Shown piece by piece: positions 1,120 to 34,944 of a stretch of 64,000 bases of DNA; position 1 is the stretch's first letter, and each line of letters starts with the position of its first letter. Where the stretch lies: NCBI RefSeq assembly GCF_000002075.1, contig NW_004797418.1, positions 427,090 to 491,089 on the forward strand, in the 5' to 3' direction. The translations under genes were made by a program, and so were the position numbers. The stretch comes from Aplysia californica. Taxonomy: Eukaryota. The notes beneath the pieces were generated by a model, which worked only from the letters and a program-made list of their open reading frames with translations, made no database searches and was not told where the DNA came from.

Positions 1120-1380
1120 TGTGTTGATATTTGTCGTTATTTTGTTATCAGTTGTTATTTGTTGCTATCAGTTGTTATCAGTTGTTATTTGTTGTAATCT
1201 CGACAAAGATAAATACCGATGTAAGACTTCCTTAAAAACCAAGTAAGAGCAACTAAATTTAGGAAGTTTGTGTCGATATTTGTCGTTGTTTTGTTGTTAT
1301 TTGTTGTTATCAGTTGTTTGTTGTTGTTATCAGTTAGTTGCTATTTGTTGTTATCGGTTGCTATTTATTGTTATCTCGAC
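1120..1380. repeat. Low-complexity (GTT/GTTATCA) tract with local duplication; shorter in copy B
   Basis: gttgttatcagtt repeats; aaataccgatgtaag...aaaaaccaagtaa occurs twice (about 1060 and about 1210). Confidence 0.8.
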
Positions 1381-1394
1381 AAAAATAAATACCT

Positions 1395-4346
1395 AAAAAA
1401 CTGAACTGAGTGCTCACTGTGGGCCCAACGCTTCATACTCTGATTATATGCTGATTGGTATGCAGCACGTCTAATGTGTTGAACAAGGGCTGCACAAGTT
1501 GGTGGAATAGCTTCGTAGAATTTGTGCTTTATGGAAAAGATCTCCAGTCGTGCATCATCAACAGCTTCAGGACACCCATCCCATGTCTGCCATGCTGACA
1601 TTTTGCCCTTTCAAGAATGCAGGCACAATATCACAGCCTGTAAAGGCATGGAAGAGCACAATACCACTGTTCCTCTCTGGGGTGAGGGTTGTGGTGAGCT
1701 CATGCACGGAGATTCCCTTCAGATTTCGTCCTTGCCCAAGAGCTATCCACATTTCCTGGAGTCCCAATTCCTGTAATTGTGAGAAAGTGACAACAACAAT
1801 CACAAGAACATCTATGTCATTGGCTTTTATCATGACTGTTTCGGAGCCCCCTTTTACAGTATCCAATGTAGGGAAGATTCTTCTTGTACTTGTATCAGCT
1901 TCCTCGTGGTTGCAGTGTAACCTTGTCATCCAGTATGGCTGCTAGCTGTGACTTATGGCGGACATGCAGCATTCCTTCATGACTCAGAGAAGCTGGACAT
2001 GGCTGACACTTGAGACGGAAGAACTCATGTAGATCGCATTCTATGTTCTGATAGGAAATTTTGAATAATTATGAGAAAAGCTGGCTTTTGAATGGCAATT
2101 GCTGAAAGAAGTCAATTTTTGCCTTCATTATTGCGCATAGAACGAGCTTGTATCTTCATGCTTTCGTGTCTCTAAGTAAGTGCGCCTCAAAAGATGAATT
2201 CCCAGTTGAAGGGTGAGTAGCAATCTTATTAGCACTACAAGGGGATGCTCTATCCTTGGTATCCAGACTGAGTAGATTTCCAGATTCTTCTTGAAATTGA
2301 TTGCCCATGTCCCCGAGCGTGCTTGTCAACCTTTGGACCATTTCCAGGAAGCTTCTCTGGCAGGTGGGCGCCTGTTCCTGATGTTTCGTCTGCTCTGAGA
2401 CATTCCTCAATACTGACGCCTCCTCATATTGTGCAACAAGCTGTGACAGCAGGGCCGGCACCCATCCATCTTCTCAGTGCTGATGGATCTTCAGATTCCG
2501 ACTGCTCCTCCATCAACTTTGATTATTGCATTGGCTTGTTCATGTGCTTGGTCAACTGCCATTTCTGAGAAATCTCTGTTGGATTTGGGAACTACAAATT
2601 TCCCAGCATGAAATCTCCAAAGTCAGCATATCTATCAGGTGCATAGGAAGCCACCATGCATAGTTCACGTTTTTGTTTGCAAATAAATATGGTATAAGCT
2701 GACATAAGGCCTGACGGTAGAGACTGAAGTTGGAAGTTCTCAAGGACCTGATGAATAGCAGAACAACTAACCTCATTGTCAGCACAATGTTCCTGTAACA
2801 GAACTGTGGGCTCTGTAGTTTGCGATGTTCACATCCGTCTTCAAAACTTCGGGTCAGCCCATTCTTCTATATATGTAGAGTAAGTTGTTTTCATTAACTG
2901 GTAGGGGCTGCACGTTGTTACTTGGTGGGTTTGATGGGTCTTGCTGAGACATGCTGCTGATAGGAAAGAATCTGCTGAGCCAGATGAAGCTGCCCCCGCT
3001 TCAGTTAGAGCTCCTGTCCATCCACTGTCTTGAAAGAGTGAACCGAGTGAACGCAGCACATTTATCTCACTATGCAATCCTCCAAACATGATGACGAATT
3101 GACTCTCGCCATAATCTTTGGGCCACTGCCACAGGATCTGTTCGGCTGTGGCATATATCGGCTGATCTGCTGTGATCACAGGCACTTGTCCGTGGTTAAG
3201 AAATCTCACTGCATCCCTAATCTTGTCCACGACATGTCTTACTGTAGCTGCAGAGCGGACTTGATGTCTCAGCAGAGGGAGCATAGTGGATATACATTGT
3301 ACAAGCTTTGAAAACAGGACCCCTCTTCTTGTCTGCCTAATGGGAAGACCATGAGATATTTACATTGTCATGGACCTCAATGATGAAGACTTTCTGGGCC
3401 ATTCATGCTCCAGTCAGCTGTGGTTTCAAAATCTCCATGAGTCTGGTAGAGTCATGTTAGTCACTTCAGGAGGATATTATGGACTCTTATTGGTGAAGTG
3501 GGCAGGTTTGATGTGCGCTATAAAATCTGGAATTTCTGGGACTGTCTTCACCATGTCACCCTTTTCTTGCAATTTCTGCAGCTGTTCTCCCTCATTCTCA
3601 GAGGTGGGGTGCTGGAACAGCGATAAACTTATACCATGGAAAGATGTCGTTGATGTTGTAGCAGATGGATTGTGGTCTATGTTGTCTGTGGCCGAAGTGG
3701 TGAACAGTCCTCTTCGCAGCTCCAGGAGAGGGGGGGGGGGTGGGGGTGGGAGGGGGGCAGATGACTCCATTTCTGATGTACTCAAACACAACAGCATCCC
3801 CCCCCCCCCCCCCCCCCCAGCTCGGCGGACATCTCCAACACTCGATCATAGAATACGTTTAATCCATTTGCCTGGAGCATTTGTGTGAGCTTCTTCGTCC
3901 TGGTCTTTGCAAACACTGACAGACCAATGCAGAGGGGGAATGGAGTCTCTCGATCCTTTGAGTGTCTGTGGTTAGTGGCACCATCTTTGAATCTATCGTA
4001 GCAGTTTAAAATCACTTCAATTGTTATAACATGTTGAAAAACATATTAAGGTGGTGATATCGTGTAAGCATATGCAAATTTGGATTTTTCATGGTCGATT
4101 ACATACATATATTTTGACACCAAAACCATATAATTTGCTCTTCTGCCTCATGCTGTGTGACATTATAGGGTTGCGCATACCGGCAATGGCGGCCATCTTG
4201 AAAAATGGCGGCCATTTTGAAAAAAAATTGCATAGTAAACGTTCGATTTATGAATACGCCTGTCATTGCGGATACGTGTGCCAATTTTGGTGCTTGTATG
4301 ACGATGTGAATGATTCGGCCGATTTTTGCAATTAGCTGCCCCACTA
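1395..4346 (-). mobile_element. Decayed Academ (AcademX, XPG-nuclease-bearing) DNA transposon with one terminus
   Basis: Fragmented ORFs with MFGGLH.E, GWTGAL.EA, NYA.WL..H..DM, D.DVLVI, FHAFTGCD (XPG/FEN H3TH-like) and PPT.AAL.QH..RAAYQ. Terminus 5'-TAGTGGGG on the minus strand (ccccacta ends at 4346), with AAAATGGCGGCCAT motifs in the terminal region. Superfamily assigned from recalled Academ architecture. Confidence 0.7.
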
Positions 4347-4656
4347 TTATGAAGGCCTATAGTTTGTTGCGAGGGACTGTAGTAATCACGAGGGCCAAGG
4401 GCAGACAGCGTGACGGCACTGGTTCTTCGCCTTGCCAGATTGTCCGCTCAGCACCCTAAAGTGGGCACTCTCAGTCTCAACCCCGTCGGTTCGTTTACGT
4501 GAGCTCTCGACTAGCCTAGTATTTAATTTGTAACCTCTTTGGGGATGCCAAAGAGAGACTGGACTGCCACACAGATTCAGTAGGCGGTGGTCCTGGCGAG
4601 AATTCATTTGTTGGGGTTTCAGAGAGGCACAACACAAAATTTATAGCCTTGTTAAT

Positions 4657-4695
<39 letters not shown>

Positions 4696-4835
4696 ATCAA
4701 TCCAGCAACAGCTGGGCTCTCGCTATTCTGTCCAATGCCATGTACTGAGTTGCTCCTGAGTCAGGAGCAACTCATTATCATTATTACCTTTATTTTAAGA
4801 GAGAATGACAATGATAGCTTTAACAATAAACCAAA

Positions 4836-4866
<31 letters not shown>

Positions 4867-4909
4867 CACACACACATACACACACACATACACACACACA
4901 CACACACAC
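4836..4909. repeat. (CA)n microsatellite (homolog 34890-34942); (TTG)n at 4657-4694
   Basis: Direct reading. Confidence 0.95.
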
Positions 4910-7840
4910 GCCCAAAATGCTAAGTCGGTACATGCGATAGTTTACCTGGCAACTAGCATGCTGTGAAGTTTGGTTGCCACTTTGTGAACAAAGAAAGTTC
5001 AAACAAGACGCAGTGACGTGACTCGTGACAGTCTGTTTCTGCTCCGGCGTGTTTATAAGACGGTAAACGTACACGTATTTTGATTGAATTGATCAGAAAT
5101 ATATTGCCTACAAACGAGTATCAAGATTCACAAGGTGAGTAAAATAGTCATTTTTTATGTTATGGTCACTTGACATTTAATAAAAATCGATGACATTTGC
5201 CTTTTCGAATTCTTTCAAATCTTAATTCTACTGAGTCTACCATGCGGAGTGAAAGAGAAGGAAGAAAGTAAGTTCACACCTTGTTTACTTTTTTTTAAAA
5301 ACACTTTCATTAGCTGTACAGAAGAAGGAGAGTGTAGCCAACTGCTTTGCGTAAAAGCAACCCATTTTCTAAAGTATAAACGTGTCATTTTTATTAACAA
5401 ACCCAGTCGCTTACTTTGTCCTCTCCCTCCGCCCGCGAAAAACAAACAATATTGCTTGATACTAATCTCTTTGTCTGTCGTCATTTAAAGTCCACGTTTA
5501 AGTACACTTGTTTCCCAAGATCAGTCAGTAGGTGCGGTAATGTATGTTACATGACTAAACAACAACATTTTAAAAACAGACATCACTAAATACTCTCTGT
5601 GAGCTCAACGATTCACACTCTGTGAAGACCCATAGAGGGGTCGCGAAGGACGCACGTGATAATGGCCCTGATTGTTGCCTCATTGGCAATATGGCCGCCC
5701 TTATTCGTGTTATACCGTGTTACATAATGTGCTGCTCTCTGGTGTGGGCAAACCAAGTCGAGGTTTTAGATTCTAGATCTAGATCTAGGTCTACAGTAAG
5801 ATCCTTTGGGCAAACGCACGCAGCCACCGTTCGCTTACGTGGGTGACGTCATAGCTGTGAGCTCTAGTACTATTTATGGCCTCTTTGGGGAGGACGAGGA
5901 CAAAGTGAGAATGGACGTCATCGCACATTAGTTATCATGAGAGCCGGTACTTTCGGTAAAAAACAAAAGTACCGAAGCTCTGCGCGTTTGATCGATATTG
6001 ATATAAATGATTGCTGATTACTAGATCTATACCTGTACCATCCATGCGTTATTTATCTTGGCTGCTCTTATTGGCCCACATGGGCAAATAAGCTGGGGCT
6101 TATTGGCCCACGTGAGCCATTTAATGCGTTGTTTTTCAATGTATTTCATAACATGGTGTTGTCCCAACTTGTTCTCTTTTATCTTTTCTCACTTTATCCC
6201 TTCTTGTTAATGTTTTCCCGAGGCATTCTCTAGCTTTAATAGTTTTGTTATTATTAAGATTATTAAGAAATAATAAGATTACGGCTATTACTTTTAGCAT
6301 TCTGTATCCTTAATAACACAAGTGCGTTTTAGTCATCTTTTTGTTGGTTTGGGAGTCATTCTAGATAGAGATCTATACTTCCTTAATATTATAGTAGAAA
6401 TTGACTTACTTTCATCCTAACTGTTGTAAGGGAATTTTATATGCCCCTGTGGGTCAATTTCGATTTCCGATTTATCTTATATGTCTGCCTAATTCAATGA
6501 CATTCTTATTTTGACTGCACACATGCACTTGATGCATTGGATTTGATCAAAGGGTAGTAGGTCTTTAAACAGATTCAAAAGGGTGGTGAGGTACTCAAAT
6601 TCTTATAAAGACTCCTCTTATTGTTGTTGTTAGTCGAAAACTGATTTCATAAAAAGAAAACAACAACCCAGGAACCGCTAGATATCTATAGATCTACGTC
6701 TAGATCTAGATTCTAGATCTAGACAATAGTAATAATATCAATAATGGGTTACAAAACATAAAATCCCTCTAATTGAGCTAAAGCTTATATCGAGGTGCTA
6801 ATTAATGGAAACACGAAATGTAGATACCTAGACTCCTGGACTGTTTGATCTTGTCCCAACAAGATAATAATATGTTTGCTTGGTACTTAATTTTAACCCG
6901 CAATGGAAAACAAGCTAGCTACACCATTTACAGTGGAAGCATCTGATTGGACCATTAGACATATAGGCCTAATAAGCATTATTGACCTATTATAGCTATC
7001 AGTGCACGAGTCTAGCAGTGCGCGGCACAGTTTGACCATAGTGCGGCTGTGAGATAGGGATTTCTATCCGGCACACGTTGCTGCCCACTGCGCAGAGACC
7101 GGTACTTATACTATTTGACCAGAGACTCTTAAATATAATTAAATTCACTCTGATTTGACCCAAAGATTAAATATTGCATGCTTTAAATAAGTTTACCTGG
7201 CAACCAGCAGTCATGCCGCGAAGTTTGATTGTCATTTCGTAAACAAACAAGGAAAGTTCAATCAATTATCAAAGTACAGCCTTAGCTTGTATAAGAGTGT
7301 GTAGATGGTCAACTTTATTAAAAATTAAGTTGATTCTATAAACTACAAACGAGTGTATCAATCAAGATTCAGAAGGTGAGAAAGACATTTTTTAAGATGC
7401 GTTCAGTTGATATTTAATACATGTAATTATTGACTTTGTGCATTCAAATCTTCAACTTCTTTTGAGTCTATCATAACGGAAAAGAACACGTGGTGTTCAC
7501 CTTTTTATACACTTTAGCTGTAAATCAAATACTCTGATTTTGGGGAGTGATTAAAATATTGAAGTTTCTATCAAAAGGAAACTTTCTTTTGTAGACATCT
7601 TATATAGATTTGGATCTAGATTCTCTAGATCTAGATTCTAGGTAGATCTAGTTTAGCCAAATCTGTTTTCGTAAAAAAAATAATATTCAAGACAATCTCT
7701 TTCTGCATCAGTAGAAGTAGATTCTCTCTAGATCTAGATTTATCTAGATATCTAGTATCTAATCAAAATTGTGTAAAAACGAGATCTAAGCCATTTTGTG
7801 AGGCACACAAGTGTCTTTTTTATATACAAATTTAGTAACT

Positions 7841-7972
7841 NNNNNNNNNNNNNNNNNNNNNNNNNNNNNNNNNNNNNNNNNNNNNNNNNNNNNNNNNNNN
7901 NNNNNNNNNNNNNNNNNNNNNNNNNNNNNNNNNNNNNNNNNNNNNNNNNNNNNNNNNNNNNNNNNNNNNNNN
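7841..7972. other. Assembly gap (others: 8642-8741, 11433-11582, 36641-36933, 50285-50428, 50709-50808, 52448-52656)
   Basis: Runs of N. Confidence 1.
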
Positions 7973-8741
7973 TTCTACACTTAGTGTAGAATTCTGTGGT
8001 ATGGCAGCAATTCTTTTCAGGAAAAAAACCCAAAAAACTTTACTCGGTACATGCGTTTAAAAAGTTTTCCTGGCAACCAGCAGCCATGCCGGGAAGTTTA
8101 ATTGACATTTTGTAAACAAAGACAGCTGACAGCCTCCCCAGTGTTTATTTAATCGGATGATCAACGTATTTCGATAAAAATCAATCAGAAATGTAGTTTA
8201 CAAACGAATGTCAAGGTTCAGAAGGTGTGTCTTTTTGTAACTGGGTACAACATGGCGTTAATATTATAGATGTGTATGGCTGTTTCCTCACTTTGAAGCA
8301 GGAACCACTTCTTCAGGAACTCAAACTTGTTTCTTCATTGGCAAATTATATTGATTCGTAGCAGAAGCTTTTATACTTCCTTGATGAAAGGCAAATAGTC
8401 TGCATTGATTGTATATATAGATCTAGTAGACTTACACCATGCGTGCTTGATTGGATTGTTATATATTATAGATCTAGTGTCTTGGGCTTGGGTAAATTTT
8501 TTCGAAGTGACTATTTCTCCGAACGTTCGGAGAAATAGTGCATATCTTTATTTCTCCGAACGGTTTCCGGCTTCCGCTCTGACTCTGGTCGTGATTGTTT
8601 GCCTATTTGCGAGAGTTCGGCGCCAACTTTCATTCCGCCATNNNNNNNNNNNNNNNNNNNNNNNNNNNNNNNNNNNNNNNNNNNNNNNNNNNNNNNNNNN
8701 NNNNNNNNNNNNNNNNNNNNNNNNNNNNNNNNNNNNNNNNN

Positions 8742-11700
8742 TTTTTAAAACACTTTCATTAGCTGTACAGAAGGAGGAGAGTGCAGCCAACTGCTTTGCG
8801 TAAAAGCAACCCATTTTCTAAAGTATAAACGTGTCATTTTTATTAACAAACCCAGTCGCTTACTTTGTCCTCTCCCTCCGCCCGCTAAAAACAAACAATA
8901 TTGCTTGATACTAATCTCTTTGTCTGTCGTCATTTAAAGTCCACGTTTAAGTACACTTGTTTCCCAAGATCAGTCAGTAGGTGCGGTAATGTACGTTACA
9001 GGACTAAACAACAACATTTTAAAAACAGACATCACTAATTACTCTCTGTGAGCTCAACGATTCACTCTGTGAAGACCCATAGAGGGGTCGCGAAGGACGC
9101 ACGTGATAATGGCCCTGATTGTTGCCTCATCGGCAATATGGCCGCCCTTATTCATGTTATACAGTGTTACATAATGTGCTGCTCTCTGGTGTGGGCAAAC
9201 CAAGTCGAGGTTTTAGATTCTAGATCTAGATCTAGGCCTACAGTAAGGTCCTTTGGGCAAACGCACGCAGCCACCGTTCGCTTACGTGGGTGACGTCATA
9301 GCTGTGAGCTCTAGTACTATTTATGGCCTCTTTGGGGAGGACGAGGACAAAGTGGGAATGGACGTCATCGCACATTAGTTATCATGAGAGCCGGTACTTT
9401 CGGTAAAAAACAAAAGTACGGAAGCTCTGCGCGTTTGATCGATATTGATATAAATGATTGCTGATTACTAGATCTATATACCTGTACCATCCATGCGTTA
9501 TTTATTTTGGCTGCTCTTATTGGCCCACATGGGCAAATAAGCTGAGGCCTATTGGCCCACGTGAGCCATTTAATGCGTTGTTTTTCAATGTATTTCATAA
9601 CATGGTGTTGTCCCAACTTGTTCTCTTTTATCTTTTCTCACTTTATCCCTTCTTGTTAATGTTTTCCCGAGGCATTCTCTAGCTTTAATAGTTTTGTTAT
9701 TATTAAGATTATTAAGAAATAATAAGATTACGGCTATTACTTTTAGCATTCTGTATCCTTAATAACACAAGTGCGTTTTAGTCATCTTTTTGTTGGTTTG
9801 GGAGTCATTCTAGATAGAGATCTATACTTCCTTAATATTATAGTAGAAATTGACTTACTTTCATCCTAACTGAAAACTTAAAATGTCATGTCACTGGTGT
9901 AAAATATATGTTATTATTAAGATTATTAAGAAATAATAAGATTACGGCTATTAGATTTTGCTGTTGTATTTTCATTTTTATCATTTGTGGATTTAAAAAT
10001 AATAATTTTTTTTTTTTTTGGGGGGGGGCAAACTCAGGGGAGATAACTCGTAATTTTGTGACAAATAATACATGTTGTAAGGGAATTTTATATGCCCCTG
10101 TGGGTCAATTTCGATTTCCGATTTATCTTATATGTCTTCCTAATTCAATGACATTCTTATTTTGACTGCACACATGCACTTGATGCATTGGATTTGATCA
10201 AAGGGTAGTAGGTCTTTAAACAGATTCAAAAGGGTGGTGAGGTACTCAAATTCTGATAAAGACTCCTCTTATTGTTGTTGTTAGTCGAATACTGATTTCA
10301 TAAAAAGAAAACAACAACCCAGGAACCGCTAGATATCTATAGATCTACGTCTAGATCTAGATCTAGACAATAGTAATAATATCAATAATGGGTTACAAAA
10401 CATAAAATCCCTCTAATTGAGCTAAAGCTTATATCGAGGTGCTAATTAATGGAAACACGAAATGTAGATACCTAGACTCCTGGACTGTTTGATCTTGTCC
10501 CAACAAGATAATAATATGTTTGCTTGGTACTTAATTTTAACCCGCAATGGAAAACAAGCTAGCTACACCATTTACAGTGGAAGCATCTGATTGGACCATT
10601 AGACATATATATAGGCCAAATAAGCATTATTGACCTATTATAGCTATCAGTGCGCGAGTCTAGCAGTGCGCGGCACAGTTTGACCATAGTGCGGCTGTGA
10701 GATAGGGATTTCTATCCGGCACACGTTGCTGCCCACTGCGCAGAGACCGGTACTTATACTATTTGACCAGAGACTCTTAAATATAATTAAATTCTCTCTG
10801 ATTTGACCCATAGATTAAATATTGCATGCTTTAAATAAGTTTACCTGGCAACCAGCAGTCATGCCGCGAAGTTTGATTGTCATTTCGTAAACAAACAAGG
10901 AAAGTTCAATCAATTATCAAAGTGCAGCCTAAGCTTGTAGGGTGTGTAGATGGTCAACTTTTTTGATTAAGTTGATTCTATAAACTACAAACGAGTGTAT
11001 CAATCAAGATTCAGAAGGTGAGAAAGACATTTTTAAAGATATGCGTTCAGTTGATATTTAATACATGTAATTATTGACTTGTGCATTCAAAGCTTCAACT
11101 TCTTCCGAGTCTATCATAACGGAAAAGAACACGTGGTGTTCACCTTTTTATACGCTTCTGTAAATCAAATACTCTGATCTTGGGGAGGGGTTAAAATATT
11201 GAAGTTTCTATCAAAAGGAAACTTTGGGGTTAAAATATTGAAGTTTCTATCAAAAGGAAACTTAATCTAGGTAGATCTAGTTGAGCCAAATCTGTTTTTG
11301 TAAAAAAAAATATATTAAAGACAATTTAATCCTCTTTCTGCATCAGTAGAAGTAGTATCTAATCAATATTGTGTAAAAACTAGATCTAAGCCATTTTGTG
11401 AGGCACAAAAGTGTCTTTTATATATACAAACTNNNNNNNNNNNNNNNNNNNNNNNNNNNNNNNNNNNNNNNNNNNNNNNNNNNNNNNNNNNNNNNNNNNN
11501 NNNNNNNNNNNNNNNNNNNNNNNNNNNNNNNNNNNNNNNNNNNNNNNNNNNNNNNNNNNNNNNNNNNNNNNNNNNNNNNNNNTGTGGCCTACGTGCCATA
11601 CGTTTTCCAAAATCAGCAGGTGCTGACTAATAATTGCGTAGGCATACATGATTAAACAACAGAAGAAAAAAAATCATGACTGAGTGCATCACACTTCTCT

Positions 11701-12190
11701 TCACGCTCTATGATTATATGAAAGCCTACAGTTCGTTGCGAGGGACGCGTTGGTTCTTCGCCTTATACCGGATTGGCCGCTCAGCGCCCCGAAGTGGGCA
11801 CACTGAACCCCGATTCCTTTACATGAATCGTGGGTGGCGTCGGAATCTTTATTGATTTTCATACTAAAAATATATATACAAATTCAAAAATGGGAGAAAA
11901 ACAACCTTGTATTAAATCGGCTCAAGGTTCTCTGCGTAGGCTTCCTCGGAGGCAACTGAAAGTATGGCAGCAATTCTTTTCAGGAAAAAAAAACAACCTT
12001 TACTCGGTACATGCGTTAAAAAAGTTTTCCTGGCAACCAGCAGCCATGCCGGGAAGTTTAATTGGCATTTTGTAAACAAAGACAGCTGAAAGCCTCCCCA
12101 GTGTTTATTTAATCGGATGATCAACGTATTTCGATAAAAATCAATCAGAAATATAGTTTACAAACGAATGTCAAGGTTCAGAAGGTGAGG
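8742..12190 (+). repeat. Near-identical direct repeat of about 5297-8225 (possibly a second haplotype assembled in tandem)
   Basis: ORFs 5622..5846 vs 9048..9293 and 5215..5484 vs 8745..8933 are near identical. The copies are separated by an exactly 100-N gap (8642-8741), and each has a gap at the same internal position. Confidence 0.85.
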
Positions 12191-13641
12191 AAATAATGTG
12201 AGGGTTTTTAATTGCCGATGTGTGTTCCATAGCCAATATTATGTAGTGCATATCTGCGTGCTGGTCTAGAAGTAAAAATTTACGTTAACATGTTTAGCAC
12301 ATGATAGCGCATGCCAGACTTCACATCACAGAAGTGTTGTGTGCAAGCCAAATTAATTAAATTTTTATAGTTTTTACAGCCTTTCCATTTTCCTTTTGAT
12401 CGTTAAATGGTAAGCGTTGGCCGACTAAAAGGTTTTTCCCGGCTGGAAGAATTTCAGCATGATTATTTTATTTGCCTGACTTGCATCAACTGTTCAATAA
12501 AACAACAGGCATCGAAAACAATATTCAGCTCTTATATTTTTGTCCACCTCTGTTGTTTAGCCACAACACTACTTCATCCTCTTCTTGGACTTCCAAAGGA
12601 CTTTTAAGGAATGTATGCAGAAATACTCTACTCAAATTACAGAGAGCAGCAAAATAGAGGCTTTTCTGTCTTACTTGTAGACTGCTGCAAATGTTTCAAA
12701 ACTGTCAGATTCTTCTTTTTCTTTTAGCTTTCGGACGTTGCTTCTTGGACTTTTCTTCAATAAATAAGCTTGCTATTCTGCTTAAAGTAATGTTTTGATC
12801 CCAAGCCAAGTTTCATTGTCCAGTTCCTATACCATGTTAAAAATTTGAAAAATACAGTATGTAAACAAATTCTTTATTTTTGGTTTTCAATTTTCTTATC
12901 ATAAGTAGGCCTACAGCATTTGCTGAGAATTCATGACTTTGTGGCAGCCTGCTTTTGGAGGTCTGCTGATAAAGGCTGTATCCTTTACAATCCCAAAAAC
13001 ACTGTCATGCTTCGGAGTATACCTTCTCATGTTCAATGAATGCAGAGACGTACACACCATTCCACAAGTACAATATGTACTACTTTAAAAGATGACTGCA
13101 GCACTGACACTGTCACCGAGACCCAATTATTATTAGTTTTAGAGCAGTAGGCTAAGCGGTCTGTAGTTTGTTTTTGCACTGACTGGTAGTATAGTGGTAG
13201 TGTAGTGCCAAGTGAAGTTGGAGCTCACTGTTCGGAATACATGTTCATGTTTCTGGTTCCCAACTAGCCCTGTAATTCAGTTAGTTATTTGTACACATAT
13301 TTCTGTATTTCAACATCAACATTCAGGAAATTTGTGACTTAAACTTAATTAGCTGTTTATTTTTAAATATCAAAGCAACTTGGGTCTTGAGAATGAAATT
13401 TAAGTATAAAATAGTGATGTTTTCATCTTTTTCAATTCTTTTCTTCCAACTTGCAATAGGGGGAGTTGGGTCTTGAACTTGAGTGCAAATCTTTGCCACT
13501 GTTTCGGCCTTATCATCGCTAGTGTGTGGGTTCTTGGGTCTTGGTTCTTATTTCTCTGTAACTGCAGCTTCTTTAAACATTTCTCCATTTCTCCCCAGAT
13601 TTTCTCACAGTTGATTTGCCAACTCTGTCTGATCTACAGCA

Positions 13642-16600
13642 ATGGATTATGTGACGGGATGGATGCTTGATGCATTCAACATGGTAAGGATTTATATTTG
13701 CTTTGTAGGATGAAAATGTCATCATATTAATCTAGATTTTTGTATCCCTAAGTGTTTACCTCTTTTCATTTTTATCTTCATTCTTGAAAAAGAGAATGCA
13801 GTGCTTAAGTCATACTTGTGCTTCATGACTAAATGACTAACATCCAAAGAAGTTTATTTTCACTTTTCATTCATTGACTCTGCTGATGAAGGAAAGATAA
13901 AACAGTGTGTTCTTTTCTTAACACTGGCTACATGAGAGTTTTTTTTGTGTACCTATTTTGATTATTCTTTCATTCACCCGAGAACTCCTAATAAAAATAA
14001 AAATAATAAATAATAATATTTTATATTTATGTTATAGCACATTTCCCCCCAAAAAGTAGCTCTATGCGCTTAAAAGGGACCTGTTTTCAGTAATGTCGAA
14101 AATCGATATTTGTGGCTTAAACTTGTCATGGTTAAAAATGTGATCAGGTTGCTGCCAGCGTTTCACTGGTGCAACGGCTCTGACTGGAGATGAGGAGTTA
14201 GCTTTCATGTCTGTAAATTGTAAAGTAAACTCTGATTTCAGCAACAGTCTCGCCCTCCATCAGAGGATGCTATCTCAGCTAAAGTGAAACAAGAACGTGT
14301 TTAGATACTAGTGTACAGTGTATAGAGAAACTCGGAGAGGTGAGATTCTAATATACAGAGCACATTGTAGAAAGTTTCATCAAATCTCTATTTGATTATT
14401 TTTTTATGGCTGCCAGGTTTTCCTTTTTTATGTAGGAACAAAAAGGCACAATTTGAATATATATACTCTCTTATTTAATTCCATCAGGGTAAGCCAGATT
14501 TTCCTTCATGGGGGGAAAGAGCTACTATTTTGACACAACACACAAATGATTCGACTTGCGATTTTGAAAAATTCATGTGTTTGATTACGAAAATCTGTTT
14601 AATTTAATTGAATATTCAATTGTTTTGTGCCAAAAAGGTAACTTTTGCTCCATCCATGAAGGGAAATCTGGCTGACCTAGACAGAATCAAATTGGCAATG
14701 TACAATGAGTATCATCCTCCAAAATAAATTTTTTTCGATTTTGTATATCACGATTTTATATGGGGGATGAAAACAATCAATCAGAAGGCTATTAAGTAGG
14801 CCTATTACATGGTCAGATCTTTTGTTTGCGCACACGGACCAGAATGCAAAGTGTAGAAGTAGAAGTCAAGTTAATGTAGTGTGCCCTGGCCAGTGTCATC
14901 CCAGTTGCATCAAACCGTATCAAATAGGTTAAAAAGTAATATATGTTCTCTTTCTCAAACCAGAAGGGGGGGGGGGGGGGGGGGGTTATATTATGTTAAG
15001 TGGACCATGAGATTTTATACTTTTGCATTATGACTCAGCATGAACTTGAAAATTGAATTTGATTTTTCTTTTTTTTTTCTTTTTTTTTCTCACTATTTTT
15101 CATTTTAGAGTAAAACAGCAGCAAGAGGATTATTGTCTGGCTTGACGACATCTGACAGATTGTCTGCTAGGATTGCTGAATTGGAGGCTGAGTTAAAAGC
15201 TGCTAAAACTAACCAGGTATGTGATGCCAATGTGAACTTAATGTGGGTACGAAATATCAAGAATGCAAGAAATATCAATTTGTCAATGTGAAGGAGAGAA
15301 AGTAGACTTGTTAACAATGGTAGACTTATGTAACTGTGGCTAGTTGTGCAGGAAAGAAAATGTAAACTTTGTCTAGATGGATGCTTTGGTTAAGTATTTG
15401 GTAGTCTAATTACTGGGATTTAGCATATCACTTGTGTTTGAATGGTTTATCATTCCCCCCCCCCCCCCCCCCCCCCCATTGGGTTCCAAGGGGAAAGGGG
15501 GAGGCCAGGGCCCAGGTCTTCAGGGTTGGCCCCCCCCCGGGGAAGGGCCCGCAAAATGGTTGTGGCCGGCTGCTTTTAAGGCAGGTTTTTACTTTTTGTG
15601 CAAACAAAGGGGGGAAGGGGGGGGGGTCCAAAAAAAAAACAGTGACAAACGATATTGAAGCAGTATGCATGACATCGCTTTGCCTAGGTGGCAGACAGAG
15701 CTACTTCCCACTCTTCAGATCTTGATATGTTTGGAGTCAAGGAAGGTGTAAGGGTGTGTCATACTATTTGGGTGTGTTGGAGGGGGGAGTGGGGAGGGGG
15801 GTTGTCAATGTGTCGGTTTAATACCCTTTCAACACTGTAAGGTTTTTAAGAGGCAGGATTTCTAAGTTTAACACTCATCTTCTATAAGACTGAGCCAAAA
15901 CACCCCAAATCAAGTTCAGAATGTCTTGTTTGGGGATTTGACTAAGGCCATCAGTTCCATAGTCCAAAATGATATCAACTTAGCCAGTAGTGCACATTTG
16001 CTGTTATAGATCAGTACTGGTTATGCAGGCTTGCCAACTGTCCAGAATTTTCAAGGACTGTCCATGATTCGACTATTGGTAATTTTAAAGCCTTGTCTCT
16101 TACACTGTACCAAAACCAGTCCCACTTGATGGAATTTTGCTCTTTCTAACATAATATGATGTTATAACGTTGGGGATCCCTTATTGGGCTTTGTAACAAC
16201 TTTCTAGTTGCTTTCTGTCATTTGGATTTGTGACAACATATTTCCCCAATGACTACTACAAGAACAAAAGGAAATGAAGAAAGTGGTATACAGTAGTCTC
16301 TGCCACAGATCCCTGTGCTTCGGAGCAAGGTAAGTGCGGGATCGTGGGCCAATGTGGTACTTCAGAGAAGTATTTTAGTGTTGACTTTTGTGTAGTTATA
16401 ATTTTGCTTTCTTGAAACAGCGGGATCATAAGTGAACTGAGATTGTAAGTGGTGGATCTTATCCAAAGACAATTGTGTACTGACATCTTTTCTTTTCTCC
16501 TTTTCATGTTCAGGTTGTTGAGCAGCTCCAAGTCGGACTCTGAGGCTCATTCTCACGGGCCAGCGGTGTCCGAGGTTTCGTCTTTTGTCAGCGAGAAGGC

Positions 16601-19600
16601 AAGAGGCAAAGAGTATGCCCCTCCTGATATGCTCGTATCCAGCGCGGCTGCACCAGCCCCACCTCCTCCTCCTCCTCCTCCTCCTCCTCCTCCTCCTCCT
16701 CCTCCTCCTCCTCCTCCTCCTCCCCCACCCCCACCCCCACCCTATTTTATGCCTGTGATTCGAAGATTGAAGACAGATGTTCAGACAAAGGATCAGGTCA
16801 TGAAGAAAATGAGGGTGAGTGAAAGTCATTTTTGTTTTTTGGTCATTTCACGTAGAATGGTTATTATGGCTTGTTGCCAATATTTTTTTTCTCTTCAAGT
16901 GACGGATCTGCAACAGATATTGGACCTGTCTGTGGTGTAATGGTTTGGTGCTTAGCTGTTGCATGCAAGAGATCTGAGATCGATTCTCAATTGGGGAGAA
17001 CATTTTTATAAAGTACCTTCATCTTTCTGCTGAGATGTATCCCTCTCAGGCTGGGTTGGGCCCGACTGGCAGGGTCAAAAGCCCACCTCTTAAATAATCT
17101 GAATTGTGTCGATGGGAGTATAAAAGCAACTACATAAAAAAAAAAAAGCCAGCACCGGTTTTTCTGCGGGATGTTCTTGAAAAAACAAATTGCCTTTGTT
17201 TATTCACATCACCTGTTTGTAAGTTTTGATAGATCTTTTCTTCTGTTTTGGTATATTTTTTAGTTTTTGGTTTGTTTGTTGTTGTTTTTTTGGGGGGGCA
17301 GGGGTTCTTTTGCACACTTCAGTGGTCACTGATTTCTAATGCTCAAAGATTTTAAAGTTTTTCTGAATCTGAGTCATTGGATACTGTTAAAAAGATAAAA
17401 TCACTAAACTGTATTATTATTATCCTGTTTTTTTCCTGTCACCTGTCATCTATTTTTCCAAGTCTGTGTCTAGCTTGTCAGTTGGCTCAAACGAAAATAA
17501 ACAAGTCTGCTGCACACCTCCCGTGCCATGGACGATACGCCACATGTCTGTCGGGTCCTCATCAATTGATCATTTTTCATTTTTCTGTCGCAGGCGGTCG
17601 GCGGGACTCTGTTGCCTGAGGTCACTGTTGAGGCTCTGAGGAGCGTGAAGCTCAAGAGGACAGGCGGCCCCGACCTGAGGTCAAGAATCAACGAGGACGG
17701 AAACCTCTCTGCCAAGGTTGGTAGACATGTGAGATTATCATTAGATCAAATGGGAACTTTTGTGCCTTATTGCGTTGGATTTAAGTTTATGTGGAAGTTT
17801 TTCTTTTGATATACAGTTGGGTCCACTTAAAAGGAGTCCGGAAAAAACGAGAAGTCTGTTATAAAGAAACTATTCTAAAACCCCGTTTTTTTCTCCTCTT
17901 TATCTTTGTAAATAAAATACTGCTATAGCGCTATCAAACATGCGAGTCAGTTATAGCGGAATATTGCTGCTGCTGTGCTCAGTGCATAGGCCATTACAAA
18001 ACCTTGTCATTTGAGAAACTTGTTTGTGATCTTGAGAAACAAAGAATAGGAGAGCCCATGTGTGTCACCAATGAAGGCCGGAGCGACTGATTAGGGAGGC
18101 ATGCGCAGACAAGCAGAACGCATTGCGTGATAGGCCAGCGTACGCCTAGTTTAGTTATCAAGGCCTACCATGCCTCTCACTTCTCCGATGCGGGGATGAA
18201 GAGGTCACAGCAATGTGATGGATGGAGGGAATGTGTGACGTGCGCAAGCAGACAAAAAGCCCCACAGGGTGGGGTGGGGTGGGGGGAAACACAGCGGGCG
18301 AGTTAGCCCAGAGCCCTTTCTTTCTGATCGCCAATGCCGAGCTGTCAGTCCACATCGCTAGACCTAGAGCTAGAAAAAGAAACCTGATTCAATTTTTGAT
18401 CAAGTAAGACCTAGAGGTCATGTTGAAACAAAATGTGAGGTAGCGTGGTGGAATCAGGCTCTCGTCAATTTTAAGGCATGTAGAGTTATTGGTATCATCT
18501 TAAAGCTTGTTCTCTTGTCTTTGTTTGGATGAAAAAGATATCCATTTATCTTGAATACAAGTCGAGATATTTGGGAAAAAAGGAGGTGGGGTCATCTGTT
18601 TTCAGAGGTAGAATTAATGAGAAAATGGCTGCCAAAGATTAGTCATTTACATTTTTTGTGCCTTTAATCAACGTTTTTCAGAAAAATTCACACAGAAATG
18701 AGTTCTTTAATGCACACAGAAATGAGATATTTAATGGGCATGAAAGGTGTTGAGCCAAAAAACAAAAATTCAATAAAAAACCACAAACCTGCGGAAAAAT
18801 GCAAGTTTCTTCACTTTGATTATTTTGACGAGAGCCTGATTCCACCACGCTGCCTCACAAATCATCATTTGAGAGATAGCAAAAGGAAATAAACAGAACA
18901 CCAATCTCATAGATTAGGCCTACTTTACAGTTTCCCTTGAATTTATTACTGGATCCCTTATAGCGAGAATCCTGCTATAACGGACATTTTGCTCCTGTCC
19001 CCTCCCTCTCGTTATAACAGGATTCCACTGTGAAACTCAATATTTTTTAGGATTCCGGGGAAAGTTCATAGGTCTGATCATGAAGGGGTCGGCAGGTCTG
19101 CATAACGTAGACTTTCCACCAAAGTTGGTGAATGGGGTTTTTGAAATAATCTTTATGAGAAGGTTTTACCGTATGAAAATTTCTTCTGCAGCTCATAAAT
19201 CCCATCTGTTTTGTCTTCAGCCGCTTGCGCCCAGCAATCAGCCTGTAGTCACTCTGGCAGCGCTACAGCGTGTGTCGCTGAGGAAAACATCGCACGTCGT
19301 CAAGAGTCATGGTGACTGCGTTGAAGATGACGTGAGTCGGAAGGAGAAGGAGAACTCTGGGTAAGTTGTCAATCTCAAATGTTGTCTGCTGTTATGGCTC
19401 GAGTTTGCACAATAGCACTTTGTCTGGAGACTGATTTTTCTGAAAATTGTTCAGACTTTTTTTCTTAACATTTTATGTTTACACCTGAAACTGCTCTAAT
19501 AAAATGTTTTTAAAAATAACAAATTCAGTTTTATTGATCCGAGAAGGGCTATTTGGTTTACAATGGCAAACATACATATTACACACATGGTATACATAAA

Positions 19601-21801
19601 TACATTAATTTTAAATACAGGCATACATAAATGCATGCTCAAATACTTACATAAATACTCAATATTACATCAATACAGAACAATTTCACAAACATGACAT
19701 CGCTGGTCACCACTGTGCAGAGCCCTGAATATTGAGCTAGGGTTGTCGTGTCTTCCTCAAGGACACACCCCAGTGACCACCCATCTAAACTCAGTGTCAC
19801 CGACACTTGCTTGACATTACTTGAGTCTGAACTCACTGCTCACTTAACCCCTTTACTCTAATGAGCACCTATACAAGACAATCACCTGTACAAATGACCA
19901 CTTCCTACTCTATGATGTCCACCTGTCTGGGGCAACCACTTTTCTTTTCGGGCGCGTTAGGTTTCTCCGCCAATGACGCAAAAGGGGACTACCTGTCAAA
20001 GTCTGGAAATTGTTTCGCCGCAAATCGTATTCGAATACAAGTTACTTACACAGAAGATAGAAGATCAATTAATTTGTGAAAGCCTCTGAAACAAAATTTG
20101 TAAACGCTCCTAGGCCTACTGTGTCAATGAGAACTCGGGAGGGGTAAACTGTTATAATGACTCAATCTCTCCTTTTCTCCCTTCATTGTAAATACTGGTC
20201 TCGTTCTTGGTCATTCCCACTCTTTCACGTGAAGAATGGCAGCCCAGTTTGAACAGCTTTGGGGTTTTTCAACAACTTTATATCTGAGACATCACATTTT
20301 TATCTTCACTGTCATGACATTATATAAACCTATCCTGCTTAAAGTCCTACTTCCAAAACATATTCTTGTTCCCAAGAAAATTCATTGACCATCAGCAACT
20401 AACAAAGTTAAAACTGAACACAGCAAATTGCAAACAGCCCTTAACAGGCCCTGTGTACAATGGCAAATCAACATCGAGAAATTCGTCAAGTACGTGAGCT
20501 TCAAGCTTTTTAAATTCTGTCCTTAAGACACCACAACGTACTAAATTAAATCTAGTTGTAATCGAATTCAATTTGCGGCGAAACGACCATTCTTTTTTTC
20601 CTCAGGTAAACTATGTGACGTAATTGCGGCGAAATGTCAACCTCCCTTCTTTTCGACAGTGGGTGGCAGTCTAAGACAATTTATACTGCATTTCTTGAAA
20701 ATATTTGTTTTGCCAATGTATTCAGCCATTATGGAAACCCTGTGTAAGAACTTATAATAATTGTGTTGTTTCTTCTATTTCTCAGTGACGGTACCATGGT
20801 CGACATCCGCAAAGTTCTCAAACGAACAACCCTACAAAGGTAACTGTCTTTGCCCTTGTCTTTCAAGAATGTTTACTTCTCATATATAGATCAAGGATAT
20901 GTACTTTATCTGTGCAGGGCTGTATTTGTCTGTTAATATTTTTAACCATATATACTCACACACAGACAAGGATGTGTGGTTAGCAGCTGAGTTGTTATAA
21001 TGTTGAGCCATAGAGTGAATGACCCTTGTTTCTAATCCTCATTGCAGTGTTTTTCCGTTTGAGCAGTTGGGATTTTCTTTTTTTTTGGGGGGGGGGTAAG
21101 ACTGTCTATCCATTTAGCATGATCCTATGTTGATGATGGACATTGTGTTCTGAAAGTTTCGTTTCTGAATAATGTTTGGTGTTGAGATGGACTTTGAACT
21201 TGAACCATGGGTGGTTCAACAGGTTGACAAGTGGTCTGGTGTGGTTTACTCCTTCTTTCCTATCAAATATCTGTCGTTGTCCTTATCTCCTTGCTTTCTT
21301 TTTTGTGTTTGTTACTCTCTTGTAACACCTCTATCTTCAGCACTTATATTATCTTAAGGTGCTGTAAGTGTCGTGAAAATGCTAAAACTAAACTAGAACC
21401 TGAACCATAGTTACACACACATACCCACACAATCGTAATCTGACTGCTCAGGTGGGAGATGTAGGTGGTAAGAGGGCGCCACCGGTAGGTTTTTCTTTAC
21501 TTTCCTTCTTCTGATTCTCTCCATCTGTCTGTCTGGGTTTTTTTACCTACACTAAATAGCCATTACTGTACAGATGTGCATCTCTTTACTTAAACTTACT
21601 GCATGTGGTTGGAGGATTCCAGTGTTTGGCCCTACTTCTGTTCTTTCTTTCTTATGTTTCAGTCTGTCTGATTTGCTTTTTTCCTGCTCAAAATGACAGT
21701 TATAGAGTCATTGTTCTTCTCTTTACTCTAATTACTCAACTGTCTGCCCCCTCAGGAGTCCTGGAGGTACTCCCATGACAAGCAAGAGGACCAGATGTTA
21801 G
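13642..21801 (+). CDS. PRR11: Proline-rich protein 11-like (copy A); exon 3 unreadable in this assembly
   Basis: Exons 13642..13683, 15109..15216, [exon 3 about 15490-15650 garbled], 16514..16814 (P28), 17594..17716, 19221..19360, 20786..20839, 21756..21801. All splice sites are conserved with copy B, and the 7 readable exons have no stop or frameshift. Strong acceptor ttctccccag at 13598 gives a 43-nt 5' UTR portion. Confidence 0.75.
14462..14703. mobile_element. Old MITE with long imperfect inverted repeats (duplicate at about 42060-42300)
   Basis: agccagattttccttcatgg ... ccatgaagggaaatctggct inverted arms within intron 1. Confidence 0.55.
16291..16475. mobile_element. Degenerate Tigger/pogo-like MITE (duplicate 43894-44078; related element starts at 49595)
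   Basis: TA|cagtagtctctgccacagatcc ... ggatcttatccaaagacaattg. Same terminus family as cagtagtctccgcctaagatcc at 49595. Confidence 0.55.
17814..19030. mobile_element. Tigger-like non-autonomous element with internal insertion (duplicate 45396-46597)
   Basis: TA|cagt(g/t)g(a/g)gtccac... and ...ggattccactg termini; internal repeated gttataa/ctatagc motifs. Confidence 0.5.
19951..20646. mobile_element. Mutator-like MITE with 9-bp TSD (duplicate 47518-48237)
   Basis: TSD ttcttttcg at 19942-19950 and 20647-20655. Imperfect TIRs gg..gttaggtttc(g/t)ccgccaat / attgcggcgaaa(t/c)gtcaacctccc; subterminal tttcgccgcaaat repeats. Confidence 0.7.
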
Positions 21802-34135: not shown

Positions 34136-34887
34136 TTATGAAGGCCTATATTTTGTTGCGAGGGACTGTAATCAAGAGGGCCACGGGCAGACAGCGTGAC
34201 GGCACTGGTTCTTCGCCTTGCCAGATTGTCCGCTCAGCACCCCAAAGTGGGCACTCTCAGTCTCAACCCCGTCGGTTCGTTTACGTGGGTGACGTCACAG
34301 TCGCGAGCTCTCGACTAGCCTAGTATTTAATTTGTAACCTCTTTGGGGAGGCCAAAGAGAGACTGGACTGCCACACAGATTCAGTAGGCGGTGGTCCTGG
34401 CGAGAATTCATTTGTTGGGGTTGCAGAGAGGCACAACACAAAATTACTAGCCTTGTTCATGTTGTTGTTGTTGTCGTTGTTATCGATCCAGCAACAGCTG
34501 GGCCCTCGCCGTTATGTCCAATGCCATGTACTGATAAGTGTAGGTTTGCTGCAGTAAAAGCCCGGCTCGTAAGTCCGTTTCCGTTGATTGCCCTCCATGA
34601 AATAATAAATAGAAAGGTGGCTGCACTTGTGGGCACCAACCCGTGTCTCGCACAAGCCCTCCCTTTTTGCAGAACTATGGCCAAGCTGAGCCGCTTACTG
34701 CTAGACTCTCGCACTGAAAGATATTAAATCTACATTCTAGTATTGAGCCACATATTAAGTTAGTGAGTAAAACAAATAATGCTCTAGATCTATATCTCCT
34801 AGTTACATGTGTTAGTCAGGAGCAACTCATTATCATTATTACCTTTATTTTAAGAGAGAATGACAATGATCGCTTCAACAATAAACC

Positions 34888-34944
<57 letters not shown>

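What the first reader, a model, noticed from the sequence alone, without database searches (positions are those of the whole stretch)
4350..12190. Cassette of tandemly duplicated promoter plus first-exon modules with conserved RFX X-box, forkhead site and splice donor
Seen: at least three anciently diverged versions of a unit, visibly much more diverged than the A/B copies, lie upstream of each gene copy. What survives in each complete unit is the X-box GTTT(A/T)CCTGGCAAC, a GT(A/G)AACA site about 30 nt later, and an AAG|GTGAG-type donor about 160-195 nt after the X-box. Homologous upstream blocks carry a perfect CRE (5844, 9291, 34290) or ATTGG. The first coding exon begins with a strong acceptor (13598 / 41216) and so needs an upstream non-coding exon. 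Known: RFX plus FOXJ1 sites typify motile-cilium and sperm promoters, and CRE/CREM sites typify spermatid genes, whereas mammalian PRR11 uses an NF-Y bidirectional promoter shared with SKA2. Inference: a bank of alternative first exons made by promoter duplication, possibly placing an invertebrate PRR11 in a ciliogenesis or spermatogenesis programme.
Basis: partly seen in the sequence, partly recalled or inferred. Interest (0 to 1): 0.7.

Follow-up and report, generated by a model that had tools for sequence, protein, structure and literature searches.

The report
Stacked copied promoters of PRR11 gene
A sea-hare copy of the cell-division gene PRR11 carries three to five old tandem copies of its own start signal and non-coding first exon; the nearest kind is spliced into the message, the others were likely kept as spare or alternative starts, and the arrangement is of a kind already known from human genes.

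Summary
Real and locus-specific. Every coordinate checks; a seventh X-box at 8064 was missed. The ~250-nt unit occurs only at copies of a PRR11-like gene (17 of 17 hits; 9 of 9), which has 7 copies in the assembly. One RNA contig shows the predicted proximal junction 37534→41217; the distal M1 exon had zero depth in 4 of 4 runs. Distal units still keep X-box, forkhead site and donor (5/120 changes vs 199/821, p=1.4e-8), so they were likely used. Corrections: the CRE rides on a dispersed repeat (91 exact copies) and is no sperm signal. A's inner duplicate starts at a 100-N gap and is probably an assembly overlap. A CDE/CHR-like element lies between X-box and forkhead site; human PRR11 is a CHR gene and mouse Prr11 has an RFX1 peak, so a proliferation promoter fits better than a ciliary one. 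Tissue is untested. The architecture matches human REF1 dual promoters. The scan noted similar duplicated promoters on other DNA (e1-9035599, e1-9860686, e1-10282336), none at this locus.

The parts
4940..5134 (+). Unit M1 (copy A): X-box 4940-4953, degenerate forkhead site GTGAACA 4984-4990, TTTGAT 5079-5084, donor AAG|GTGAGT after 5134
   Evidence: the B counterpart had RNA depth 0 in 4 of 4 runs
7191..7375 (+). Unit M2 (left version): X-box 7191-7204, CDE/CHR-like TGCCGC-GAAG-TTTGAT 7214-7229, forkhead GTAAACA 7239-7245, donor after 7375
   Evidence: 0/30 changes in X-box, forkhead and donor against 69/212 in background
8064..8224 (+).
8642..8741 (.). 100-N stretch; the repeat of 5293-7830 starts on the next base (8742-11430). 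Likely an uncollapsed overlap of two alleles or array copies
   Evidence: 5 of 12 100-N stretches have such flanking duplicates; 3.9% substitutions between the two versions
10839..11017 (+). Unit M2 (right version): X-box 10839, TTTGAT 10872, forkhead 10887, donor after 11017
   Evidence: 94% identical to the 7191 unit
12024..12184 (+). Unit M3, the proximal promoter and non-coding first exon of copy A: full-consensus X-box 12024-12037, TGCCGG-GAAG-TTTAAT, forkhead 12072-12078, TTCGAT 12130-12135, donor after 12184
   Evidence: an M3-type exon is spliced to exon 2 in run X5 (laid on the B paralogue)
4340..4650 (.). Fragment of a dispersed CRE-bearing repeat upstream of M1; the CRE is deleted in this copy (approximate ends)
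5600..5940 (.). Same repeat upstream of M2, with TGACGTCA at 5844-5851 (duplicate at about 9050-9390, CRE 9291); approximate ends
11700..11845 (.). Same repeat upstream of M3, with ATTGG and a degenerate CRE (approximate ends)
13599..21801 (+). PRR11-like gene, copy A: exon 2 13599-13683 (ATG 13642), seven further exons; exon 4 garbled at about 15455-15650
34130..34440 (.). CRE-bearing repeat upstream of B's M1 (CRE 34290-34297)
34973..35167 (+). Unit M1 of copy B
   Evidence: depth 0 over 34808-35161 in 4 of 4 runs
35760..35800 (+). Orphan 3' end and donor of M2 in copy B; X-box and forkhead site deleted
37373..37534 (+). Unit M3 of copy B: X-box 37373, TGCCGG-GAAG-TTTGAT 37396-37411, forkhead 37421, donor ACG|GTGAGG
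   Evidence: joint 37533-41216, GT..AG at cut +1, one contig of depth 63.7 with 84 letters on the short side, run X5
41217..49395 (+). PRR11-like gene, copy B: eight exons, open 320-codon frame
   Evidence: RNA joints exon 2-3 and exon 4-5 in X4 and X5; NCBI names the matching protein proline-rich protein 11-like

Best explanation
The unit is the core promoter, non-coding first exon and splice donor of a PRR11-like gene, present in tandem three to five times; the proximal type (M3) is spliced to the first coding exon in RNA, the distal types were likely kept by selection as alternative or back-up starts, and the promoter most likely answers to cell-proliferation factors. Inferred sequence of events: (1) a single unit, as still seen at the C15 copy, was duplicated in tandem; (2) the whole gene with its stack was then amplified into a tandem array of near-identical copies (1.7-3.0% apart); (3) single units have since been lost by deletion or point change, differently in each copy. 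Each intact unit would start a transcript a few tens of bases after the forkhead site and splice its donor to the one acceptor in front of the ATG, so the protein is unchanged and only output, tissue or 5' leader differ. The conserved letters are an RFX X-box, a CDE/CHR-like element (TGCCG(C/G)-GAAG-TTTGAT), a forkhead site and a second TTYGA(T/A) about 55 nt before the donor. These would recruit RFX and MuvB/DREAM-FOXM1-type complexes in dividing cells such as gonad, embryo and larva (inferred; no binding or tissue data). Odds by step: duplication 0.95; M3 type used 0.9; distal units used at some time or tissue 0.65; cell-cycle rather than ciliary logic 0.5.
For: Locus specificity. RNA junction at the predicted bases, and splicing of exons 2-3 and 4-5. 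Constraint in four distal lineages (Za, Zb, M1, M2): X-box 1/56, donor 1/36, spacer 14/118 changes against 199/821 in flank, exon body and intron; p=5.6e-6, 7e-4, 1.2e-3. The donor was not the anchor used to find the units. Single-unit copy on C15 whose flanks resemble parts of all three unit types. CHR list and spacing: TTTGAT and TTCGAT are validated CHRs and PRR11 is in the table of conserved-CHR late cell-cycle genes (PMC4176359, passages); the CDE sits 4 nt upstream of the CHR (PMC5716687, passages). Site 1 matches the validated list in 8 of 16 units; chance for such a composite in a 30-nt spacer is about 0.012. Site 2 lies 52-56 nt before the donor in 13 of 16 entries and switches among TTTGAT, TTCGAT and TTTGAA. 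Mouse Prr11/Ska2 RFX1 peak at -257 (PMC7498320 supplement rows). Fission-yeast RFX and forkhead sites within 40 bp on mitotic genes (PMC4538799, section 15). Protein under purifying selection, omega about 0.43 between array and C15 copy.
Against: No junction from M1 or M2 was listed, and the M1 exon had depth 0 in 4 of 4 runs; 21 joints were not shown and the tissues are unknown. M1 alone shows no significant constraint (2/30 vs 37/205, p=0.089), and the forkhead site alone is not significant in distal units (3/28, p=0.069). The CHR reading is post hoc: validated hexamers occur 9 per kb here, so 1.4 are expected in any 160 nt. A's own M3 reads TTTAAT at site 1, which is not on the validated list, and the CDE-like 6-mer has 1-2 mismatches. 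The junction rests on one contig in one run whose RNA nature is a guess by the tool, and the contig matches neither A nor B at the exon 2-3 border (it matches copy E there). Copy number and the order of units rest on a gapped assembly. The X-box anchor inflates its own conservation figure.
Confidence: 0.5

Rival explanations
1. The same stack is a motile-cilium or sperm promoter bank driven by RFX and FOXJ1. This rival concerns regulation, not architecture, and can hold together with the best explanation in spermatocytes or multiciliating precursors.
For: X-box with a perfect GGCAAC half-site and RYMAAYA 34 nt away in M2, M3 and the C15 copy. Close Fox and Rfx motifs near the start are described as a ciliary-motility fingerprint (PMC4168999, passages). 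The gene was silent in one raw poly(A) run and expressed in two others, so it is tissue-restricted.
Against: The CRE support falls away. Xenopus prr11 shows no significant rise in three sheets that I read, from their names, as multicilin time points (fold 2.2, 0.95, 0.47; padj 1, 1, 0.12; PMC5245798 supplement rows; 5 of 17 files not searched). In mouse ependymal cells Prr11 appears only in RFX1 lists of the held, cut file, and that paper's abstract, seen in a passage, gives RFX2 and RFX3 the prominent ciliary role. None of 25 listed testis/cilia papers mentioned PRR11.
Confidence: 0.25
2. Only the proximal unit works today; the distal units are relics of promoter turnover, or act only as enhancers of the proximal start.
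For: Depth 0 on M1 in 4 of 4 runs. Frequent loss among young copies: B's M2 lacks its X-box, A's 8064 unit and Z's proximal unit lack an intact donor, E's M3 is cut after the X-box, Z's M2 lacks the forkhead site. M1 lost RYMAAYA and CHR-like site 1.
Against: Donors in four distal lineages changed at 1 of 36 sites (p=7e-4), which an enhancer role does not need. In copies Z and E the proximal unit is the broken one, so these copies need a distal unit or are silent.
Confidence: 0.3
3. The stack is an assembly artefact or a dispersed repeat. True in part: the inner duplicate of A (odds about 0.7) and the CRE block (about 0.95). False for the three unit types.
For: 5 of 12 100-N stretches in the fetched regions have flanking direct duplicates, against 2 of 24 other N stretches, both inside this same duplicate. 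The CRE 18-mer has 91 exact copies, control 0.
Against: M1, M2 and M3 are only 61-68% alike and recur in the same order in separate gene copies. M1 and M2 lie in one unbroken stretch, 4940-7375. The core occurs nowhere else. The two versions around the gap differ by 3.9% and carry different deletions, so a true local duplication is not excluded.
Confidence: 0.03

Closest known systems
Human REF1 dual-promoter duplicon (Weaver and Lowe, bioRxiv 10.64898/2025.12.03.692127; abstract and passages)
   Same: An ancient tandem promoter duplication gave alternative promoters of one gene, and the duplicon was then spread by segmental duplication of the whole gene.
   Different: REF1 has two promoters, both shown as start sites; here there are three to five, only one type is seen spliced, units are lost differently in each gene copy, and the host is a mollusc PRR11 array.
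Mouse Snrpn U exons (PMC3248558, passages)
   Same: Several upstream promoter-plus-exon units splice mostly to a common exon 2 and can compensate for one another.
   Different: Nine exons over 580 kb with an imprinting role; here the stack spans 2.5-10 kb and no such role is known. That U exons arose by duplication is recalled, not seen in the passages.
Variable first-exon clusters such as UGT1/UGT2 (PMC2819257, passages)
   Same: Tandem first exons, each with its own promoter, spliced to common downstream exons; birth-and-death evolution.
   Different: Those variable exons are coding and diversify the protein; here the ATG is in exon 2, so the protein is constant.
Vertebrate PRR11 promoter (PMC5372550 passages; PMC4176359 passages; PMC7498320 supplement rows)
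   Same: PRR11-type gene; CHR-like hexamers and an RFX site near the start.
   Different: Mammals have one bidirectional NF-Y promoter shared with SKA2. Here no SKA2 match lies near any copy (a weak test), the ATTGG is repeat-borne, and the promoter is multiplied.
RFX plus forkhead promoters: ciliary (PMC4168999, passages) and mitotic, Sak1-Fkh2 in fission yeast (PMC4538799, abstract and section 15)
   Same: X-box and forkhead core within about 40 bp.
   Different: The motif pair alone does not tell the two programmes apart; no binding or tissue data exist here.

Membership tests
Tandem-duplicated alternative promoters (REF1 type) | Homologous promoter copies in tandem upstream of one gene | tested here: met
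Tandem-duplicated alternative promoters (REF1 type) | Old tandem duplication later spread by whole-gene duplication | tested here: met
   units 61-68% alike; gene copies 1.7-3.0% apart; 7 copies
Tandem-duplicated alternative promoters (REF1 type) | More than one copy serves as a start with a spliced first exon | tested here: inconclusive
   M3 type spliced in 1 of 4 runs; M1 depth 0 in 4 of 4; tissues unknown; 21 joints not shown. Donor constraint is indirect support
Tandem-duplicated alternative promoters (REF1 type) | Open chromatin or mapped 5' ends at each copy | not testable with these tools
   contigs cannot show starts; the one raw-read run laid was silent
RFX/FOXJ1 motile-cilium promoter | Full X-box RYYNYY N1-3 RRNRAC (PMC4168999) | tested here: inconclusive
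   met by M3 only, 1 of 8 units tested; the other 7 have a perfect 3' half and a relaxed 5' half, a form the paper also describes
RFX/FOXJ1 motile-cilium promoter | Forkhead core RYMAAYA close to the X-box | tested here: met
   6 of 8 units; fails in M1 and Zd
RFX/FOXJ1 motile-cilium promoter | Expression in ciliated or sperm cells, dependent on RFX/FOXJ1 | not testable with these tools
   run tissues are not given; vertebrate orthologue rows give an RFX1 peak but no significant rise in the multicilin sheets
CRE/CREM spermatid promoter (family features recalled) | A CRE conserved as part of the promoter | tested here: not met
   CRE is part of a dispersed repeat with 91 exact 18-mers; deleted in A's M1, degenerate in M3; no C15 hit for the block
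CDE/CHR late cell-cycle promoter | Validated CHR hexamer near the start, conserved | tested here: inconclusive
   site 1 in 8 of 16 units, site 2 in 13 of 16 entries; background 9 per kb; start not mapped; found post hoc
CDE/CHR late cell-cycle promoter | GC-rich CDE 4 nt upstream of the CHR | tested here: inconclusive
   TGCCGG or TGCCGC, 1-2 mismatches to TGGCGG, at exactly 4 nt in M2, M3, Za and Zd; 3 mismatches in M1
CDE/CHR late cell-cycle promoter | DREAM/MuvB binding and G2/M peak expression | not testable with these tools
   needs ChIP or reporter data
PRR11 protein family | Sequence kinship to PRR11 | tested here: met
   NCBI names for P0003 and an Elysia relative; the top two Atlas clusters are PRR11 at 0.91 and 0.90, PRR11 Pfam families on 11-50% of members; the local Pfam copy gave no family
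PRR11-SKA2 bidirectional pair | SKA2 head-to-head with PRR11 | tested here: inconclusive
   PF16740 gave one sub-cut-off hit on another contig, none near the copies; an exon-wise search can miss a diverged gene
Dispersed repeat (core unit) | Many copies at unrelated loci | tested here: not met
   17 of 17 and 9 of 9 hits at PRR11 copies; the DNA search gives lower bounds

The most novel reading that the evidence does not exclude
The stack is a working bank of three to five subfunctionalised PRR11 promoters: M2 and M3 keep RFX, CHR-like and forkhead sites for dividing cells, M1 keeps only the X-box and donor for another cell type, and each array copy keeps a different subset. It would also show that an RFX + CHR + forkhead mitotic promoter logic for PRR11 is shared by molluscs and mammals.
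Probability: 0.2. Interest if true: 0.6.

Novelty: new member of a known kind. Interest (0 to 1): 0.36.

Why it matters
The kind is known, so the architecture alone is not surprising. Its value is as a natural mutagenesis series: about 17 homologous core promoters in one genome, of two very different ages, mark out the letters that matter. They point to RFX and CHR-like input on an invertebrate PRR11, where the vertebrate papers I saw stress NF-Y. If the distal exons are used in different tissues, it is a compact, testable case of promoter birth and death inside an amplifying gene array. It also warns that a perfect CRE beside a promoter can be cargo of a repeat.

Tried and rejected
No RNA holder was listed on record in the run search; this is no evidence either way. 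X17 (raw poly(A), about 1.5 billion letters) was practically silent over the gene and says nothing on promoter choice. X7 showed only thin unspliced pieces, which may be DNA or pre-mRNA. Depth arithmetic hints that the C15-type first exon is spliced in X4 (17.4 x 36/354 = 1.77), but the joint was not displayed, so I do not count it. The unspliced intron-1 contig of X4 could not be assigned to an assembled copy (best 18 of 21 sites). Rfam found nothing in 4200-13700. Pfam gave no family for the exons or P0001. P0006 is a repetitive chance hit and was set aside. A generic strict X-box pattern gave 8 hits in the window against 7.7 expected, so motif presence alone is no evidence; only conservation and position are. 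Intron identity was unreliable because the M3 and C15 introns are not homologous, and was redone without them. The C1626 array does not pair one-to-one with C148 as a simple second haplotype, so true copy number is open (about 4 to 7). Literature searches: PRR11+RFX+promoter gave 1 unrelated paper; promoter duplication+alternative first exons+tandem gave 0; duplicated promoters+first exon+alternative promoter gave 1; I found nothing on this locus in these, and the library lacks most subscription journals. PMC314283 was not held. The supplement of PMC4745085 (RFX2 testis targets) could not be read and may bear on the sperm reading; file 1 of PMC4176359 was not searched.
Full report
Setting. The window is G000:C148:427090-491089. 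It holds two copies, A and B, of an eight-coding-exon gene inside a segmental duplication of about 93% identity. Source names call the protein proline-rich protein 11-like of Aplysia californica, with relatives in Lymnaea, Elysia and Bradybaena; the two best Atlas clusters are PRR11, while the local Pfam copy gave no family. Exon 7 finds 7 copies: three on C148 (Z upstream of the window, A, B), three on C1626 (two of them here called D and E) and one on C15 (F). The six array copies differ by 1.7-3.0% in the gene body. F is older (dS about 0.30) and the protein is under moderate purifying selection (omega about 0.43, poly-proline left out).

Every X-box, forkhead site, donor, CRE and acceptor is at the stated base. 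A seventh X-box at 8064 was missed. Aligning 18 units from all copies gives three recurring types, M1, M2 and M3, at 61-68% identity, two more old units in Z, and the unit of F. The unit is confined to this gene: 17 of 17 DNA hits and 9 of 9 matches of an X-box-plus-forkhead pattern, reversed control 0. The first refutation criterion is therefore not met for the core.

How many units are real. The stretch 8742-11430 repeats 5293-7830 from the first base after a 100-N stretch. In the regions fetched, 5 of 12 100-N stretches have such flanking duplicates, against 2 of 24 other N stretches, both of which lie inside this same duplicate. F's two identical units flank one of these stretches too. I read A as M1-M2-M3 shown twice in part (odds about 0.7). 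Against this, the two versions differ by 3.9% and carry different deletions, so they may be two array copies or a true local duplication. F then has one unit, with flanks that resemble parts of M1, M2 and M3; that it shows the ancestral state is an inference.

RNA. Four of 24 listed runs were laid on the B paralogue at 82% likeness. Run X5 has one contig (depth 63.7, 84 letters on the short side) that joins 37533 to 41216 with GT..AG at cut +1, which is the predicted 37534-to-41217 junction. A contig of the same depth carries the exon 2-3 border letters of copy E, not A or B, so the evidence is for an M3-type exon of some array copy. Exon 2-3 and 4-5 joints appear in X4 and X5, including the F type. 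The bin holding M1 had depth 0 in 4 of 4 runs and no M1 or M2 joint was listed, but 21 joints were not shown, X17 was silent for the whole gene, and tissues are not given. X4 also has a contig spliced at exons 2-3 that reads unspliced far into intron 1.

Selection. Counting changes from the consensus of the other lineages, the four distal lineages (Za, Zb, M1, M2) changed 1/56 X-box sites, 1/36 donor sites, 3/28 forkhead sites and 14/118 spacer sites, against 199/821 in flank, exon body and intron; X-box, forkhead and donor together give p=1.4e-8. The X-box figure is inflated by anchoring; the donor figure (p=7e-4) is not. M2 alone is significant (0/30, p=1.9e-5); M1 alone is not (2/30, p=0.089). 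A patchwork of kept motifs around a 66%-identical exon body fits selection better than gene conversion (inference). Yet units die often among the young copies: B lost M2's X-box, Z's and E's proximal units are broken, Z's M2 lost its forkhead site. This is promoter birth and death, and it suggests that the units are partly redundant.

The CRE is not promoter evidence. The upstream block has weak hits on nine other contigs, 5 of 10 such loci fetched carry TGACGTCA in the same context, and one 18-letter piece has 91 exact copies, control 0. The CRE is deleted in A's M1 and degenerate in M3, and neither block search hit C15. Co-option is not excluded, but nothing supports it.

Which programme. 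Only M3 meets the full X-box consensus of PMC4168999 (passages); the rest have a relaxed 5' half, and M1 fails the forkhead core. The constrained spacer reads TGCCG(C/G)-GAAG-TTTGAT. TTTGAT and TTCGAT are validated CHRs and PRR11 is listed among conserved-CHR late cell-cycle genes (PMC4176359, passages); a CDE sits 4 nt upstream of a CHR (PMC5716687, passages). Site 1 is a validated hexamer in 8 of 16 units (E's truncated unit left out, F counted once), and a second TTYGA(T/A) lies 52-56 nt before the donor in 13 of 16 entries, as TTTGAT, TTCGAT or TTTGAA. This was found post hoc in DNA with 9 such hexamers per kb, and A's M3 has TTTAAT at site 1. Mouse Prr11/Ska2 has an RFX1 peak at -257 (PMC7498320, supplement rows of a cut file). 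Xenopus prr11 shows no significant rise in three sheets I read as multicilin time points (PMC5245798, supplement rows). RFX and forkhead sites within 40 bp also mark mitotic genes in fission yeast (PMC4538799, section 15). Mammalian PRR11 uses an NF-Y bidirectional promoter with SKA2 (PMC5372550, passages); no SKA2 match lies near any copy here (weak test). I put cell-cycle logic at about 0.5 and cilia or sperm at about 0.25; they can overlap in the gonad.

Comparison and verdict. Human REF1 shows the same history: an old tandem promoter duplication giving alternative starts, later spread by segmental duplication (bioRxiv 10.64898/2025.12.03.692127, abstract and passages; the lead came from earlier finding e1-9035599). 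Snrpn U exons and UGT variable exons are looser relatives. I found nothing in print on this locus, within a limited library. It is a new member of a known kind: real, partly confirmed in RNA, with a larger and more dynamic stack than the precedent, but with use of the distal exons and the tissue programme unproven. Interest 0.36.

Noticed in passing
window 15455-15650: Exon 4 of copy A is garbled after a long C run (71% to B's exon 4, other exons 87-99%); RNA contigs carry the B-like exon. Probably low-quality sequence rather than a pseudogene.
   Followed up: partly
window 21799-21801 and 49393-49395: All five array copies compared stop 14 codons earlier than the C15 copy.
   Followed up: partly
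window 34130-34440; 91 places genome-wide: An uncharacterised dispersed repeat that carries a perfect CRE; two fetched copies share about 490 bases. Type and ends not determined.
   Followed up: partly
window 38871-41299 (run X4, record 3): A 1665-letter contig spliced at exons 2-3 but unspliced about 1.5 kb into intron 1; it matches no assembled copy exactly. Retained intron, or a long leader from an allele without a working donor.
   Followed up: partly
window 22893-23950: Tandem array of a unit of about 82 bases downstream of copy A, also present after Z, E and the third C1626 copy.
   Followed up: no
window 32-553, 27500-30400, 53300-56500, 59000-60100: Broken retroelement frames: zinc knuckle, aspartyl protease and RT-RNaseH matches (LTR type) and RT or RNase H matches further right.
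   Followed up: partly
window 1200-3900 and 31000-33800: Decayed minus-strand frames upstream of both copies, duplicated with them; no Pfam match for the two frames tested.
   Followed up: no
G000:C148:396000-408000 (L021-L023): Copy Z has five units, an inverted piece of the CRE repeat at 398570-398735 and an inversion in intron 1; its proximal unit has a mutated X-box and no donor.
   Followed up: partly
window 7841-7972, 11433-11582, 36641-36933: Three N stretches lie at the same homologous place downstream of M2; gap and mask cannot be told apart.
   Followed up: no
G000:C148:397414 unit (L022): In unit Zb a second X-box-like site directly follows the first on the other strand; other units keep only part of it.
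   Followed up: no
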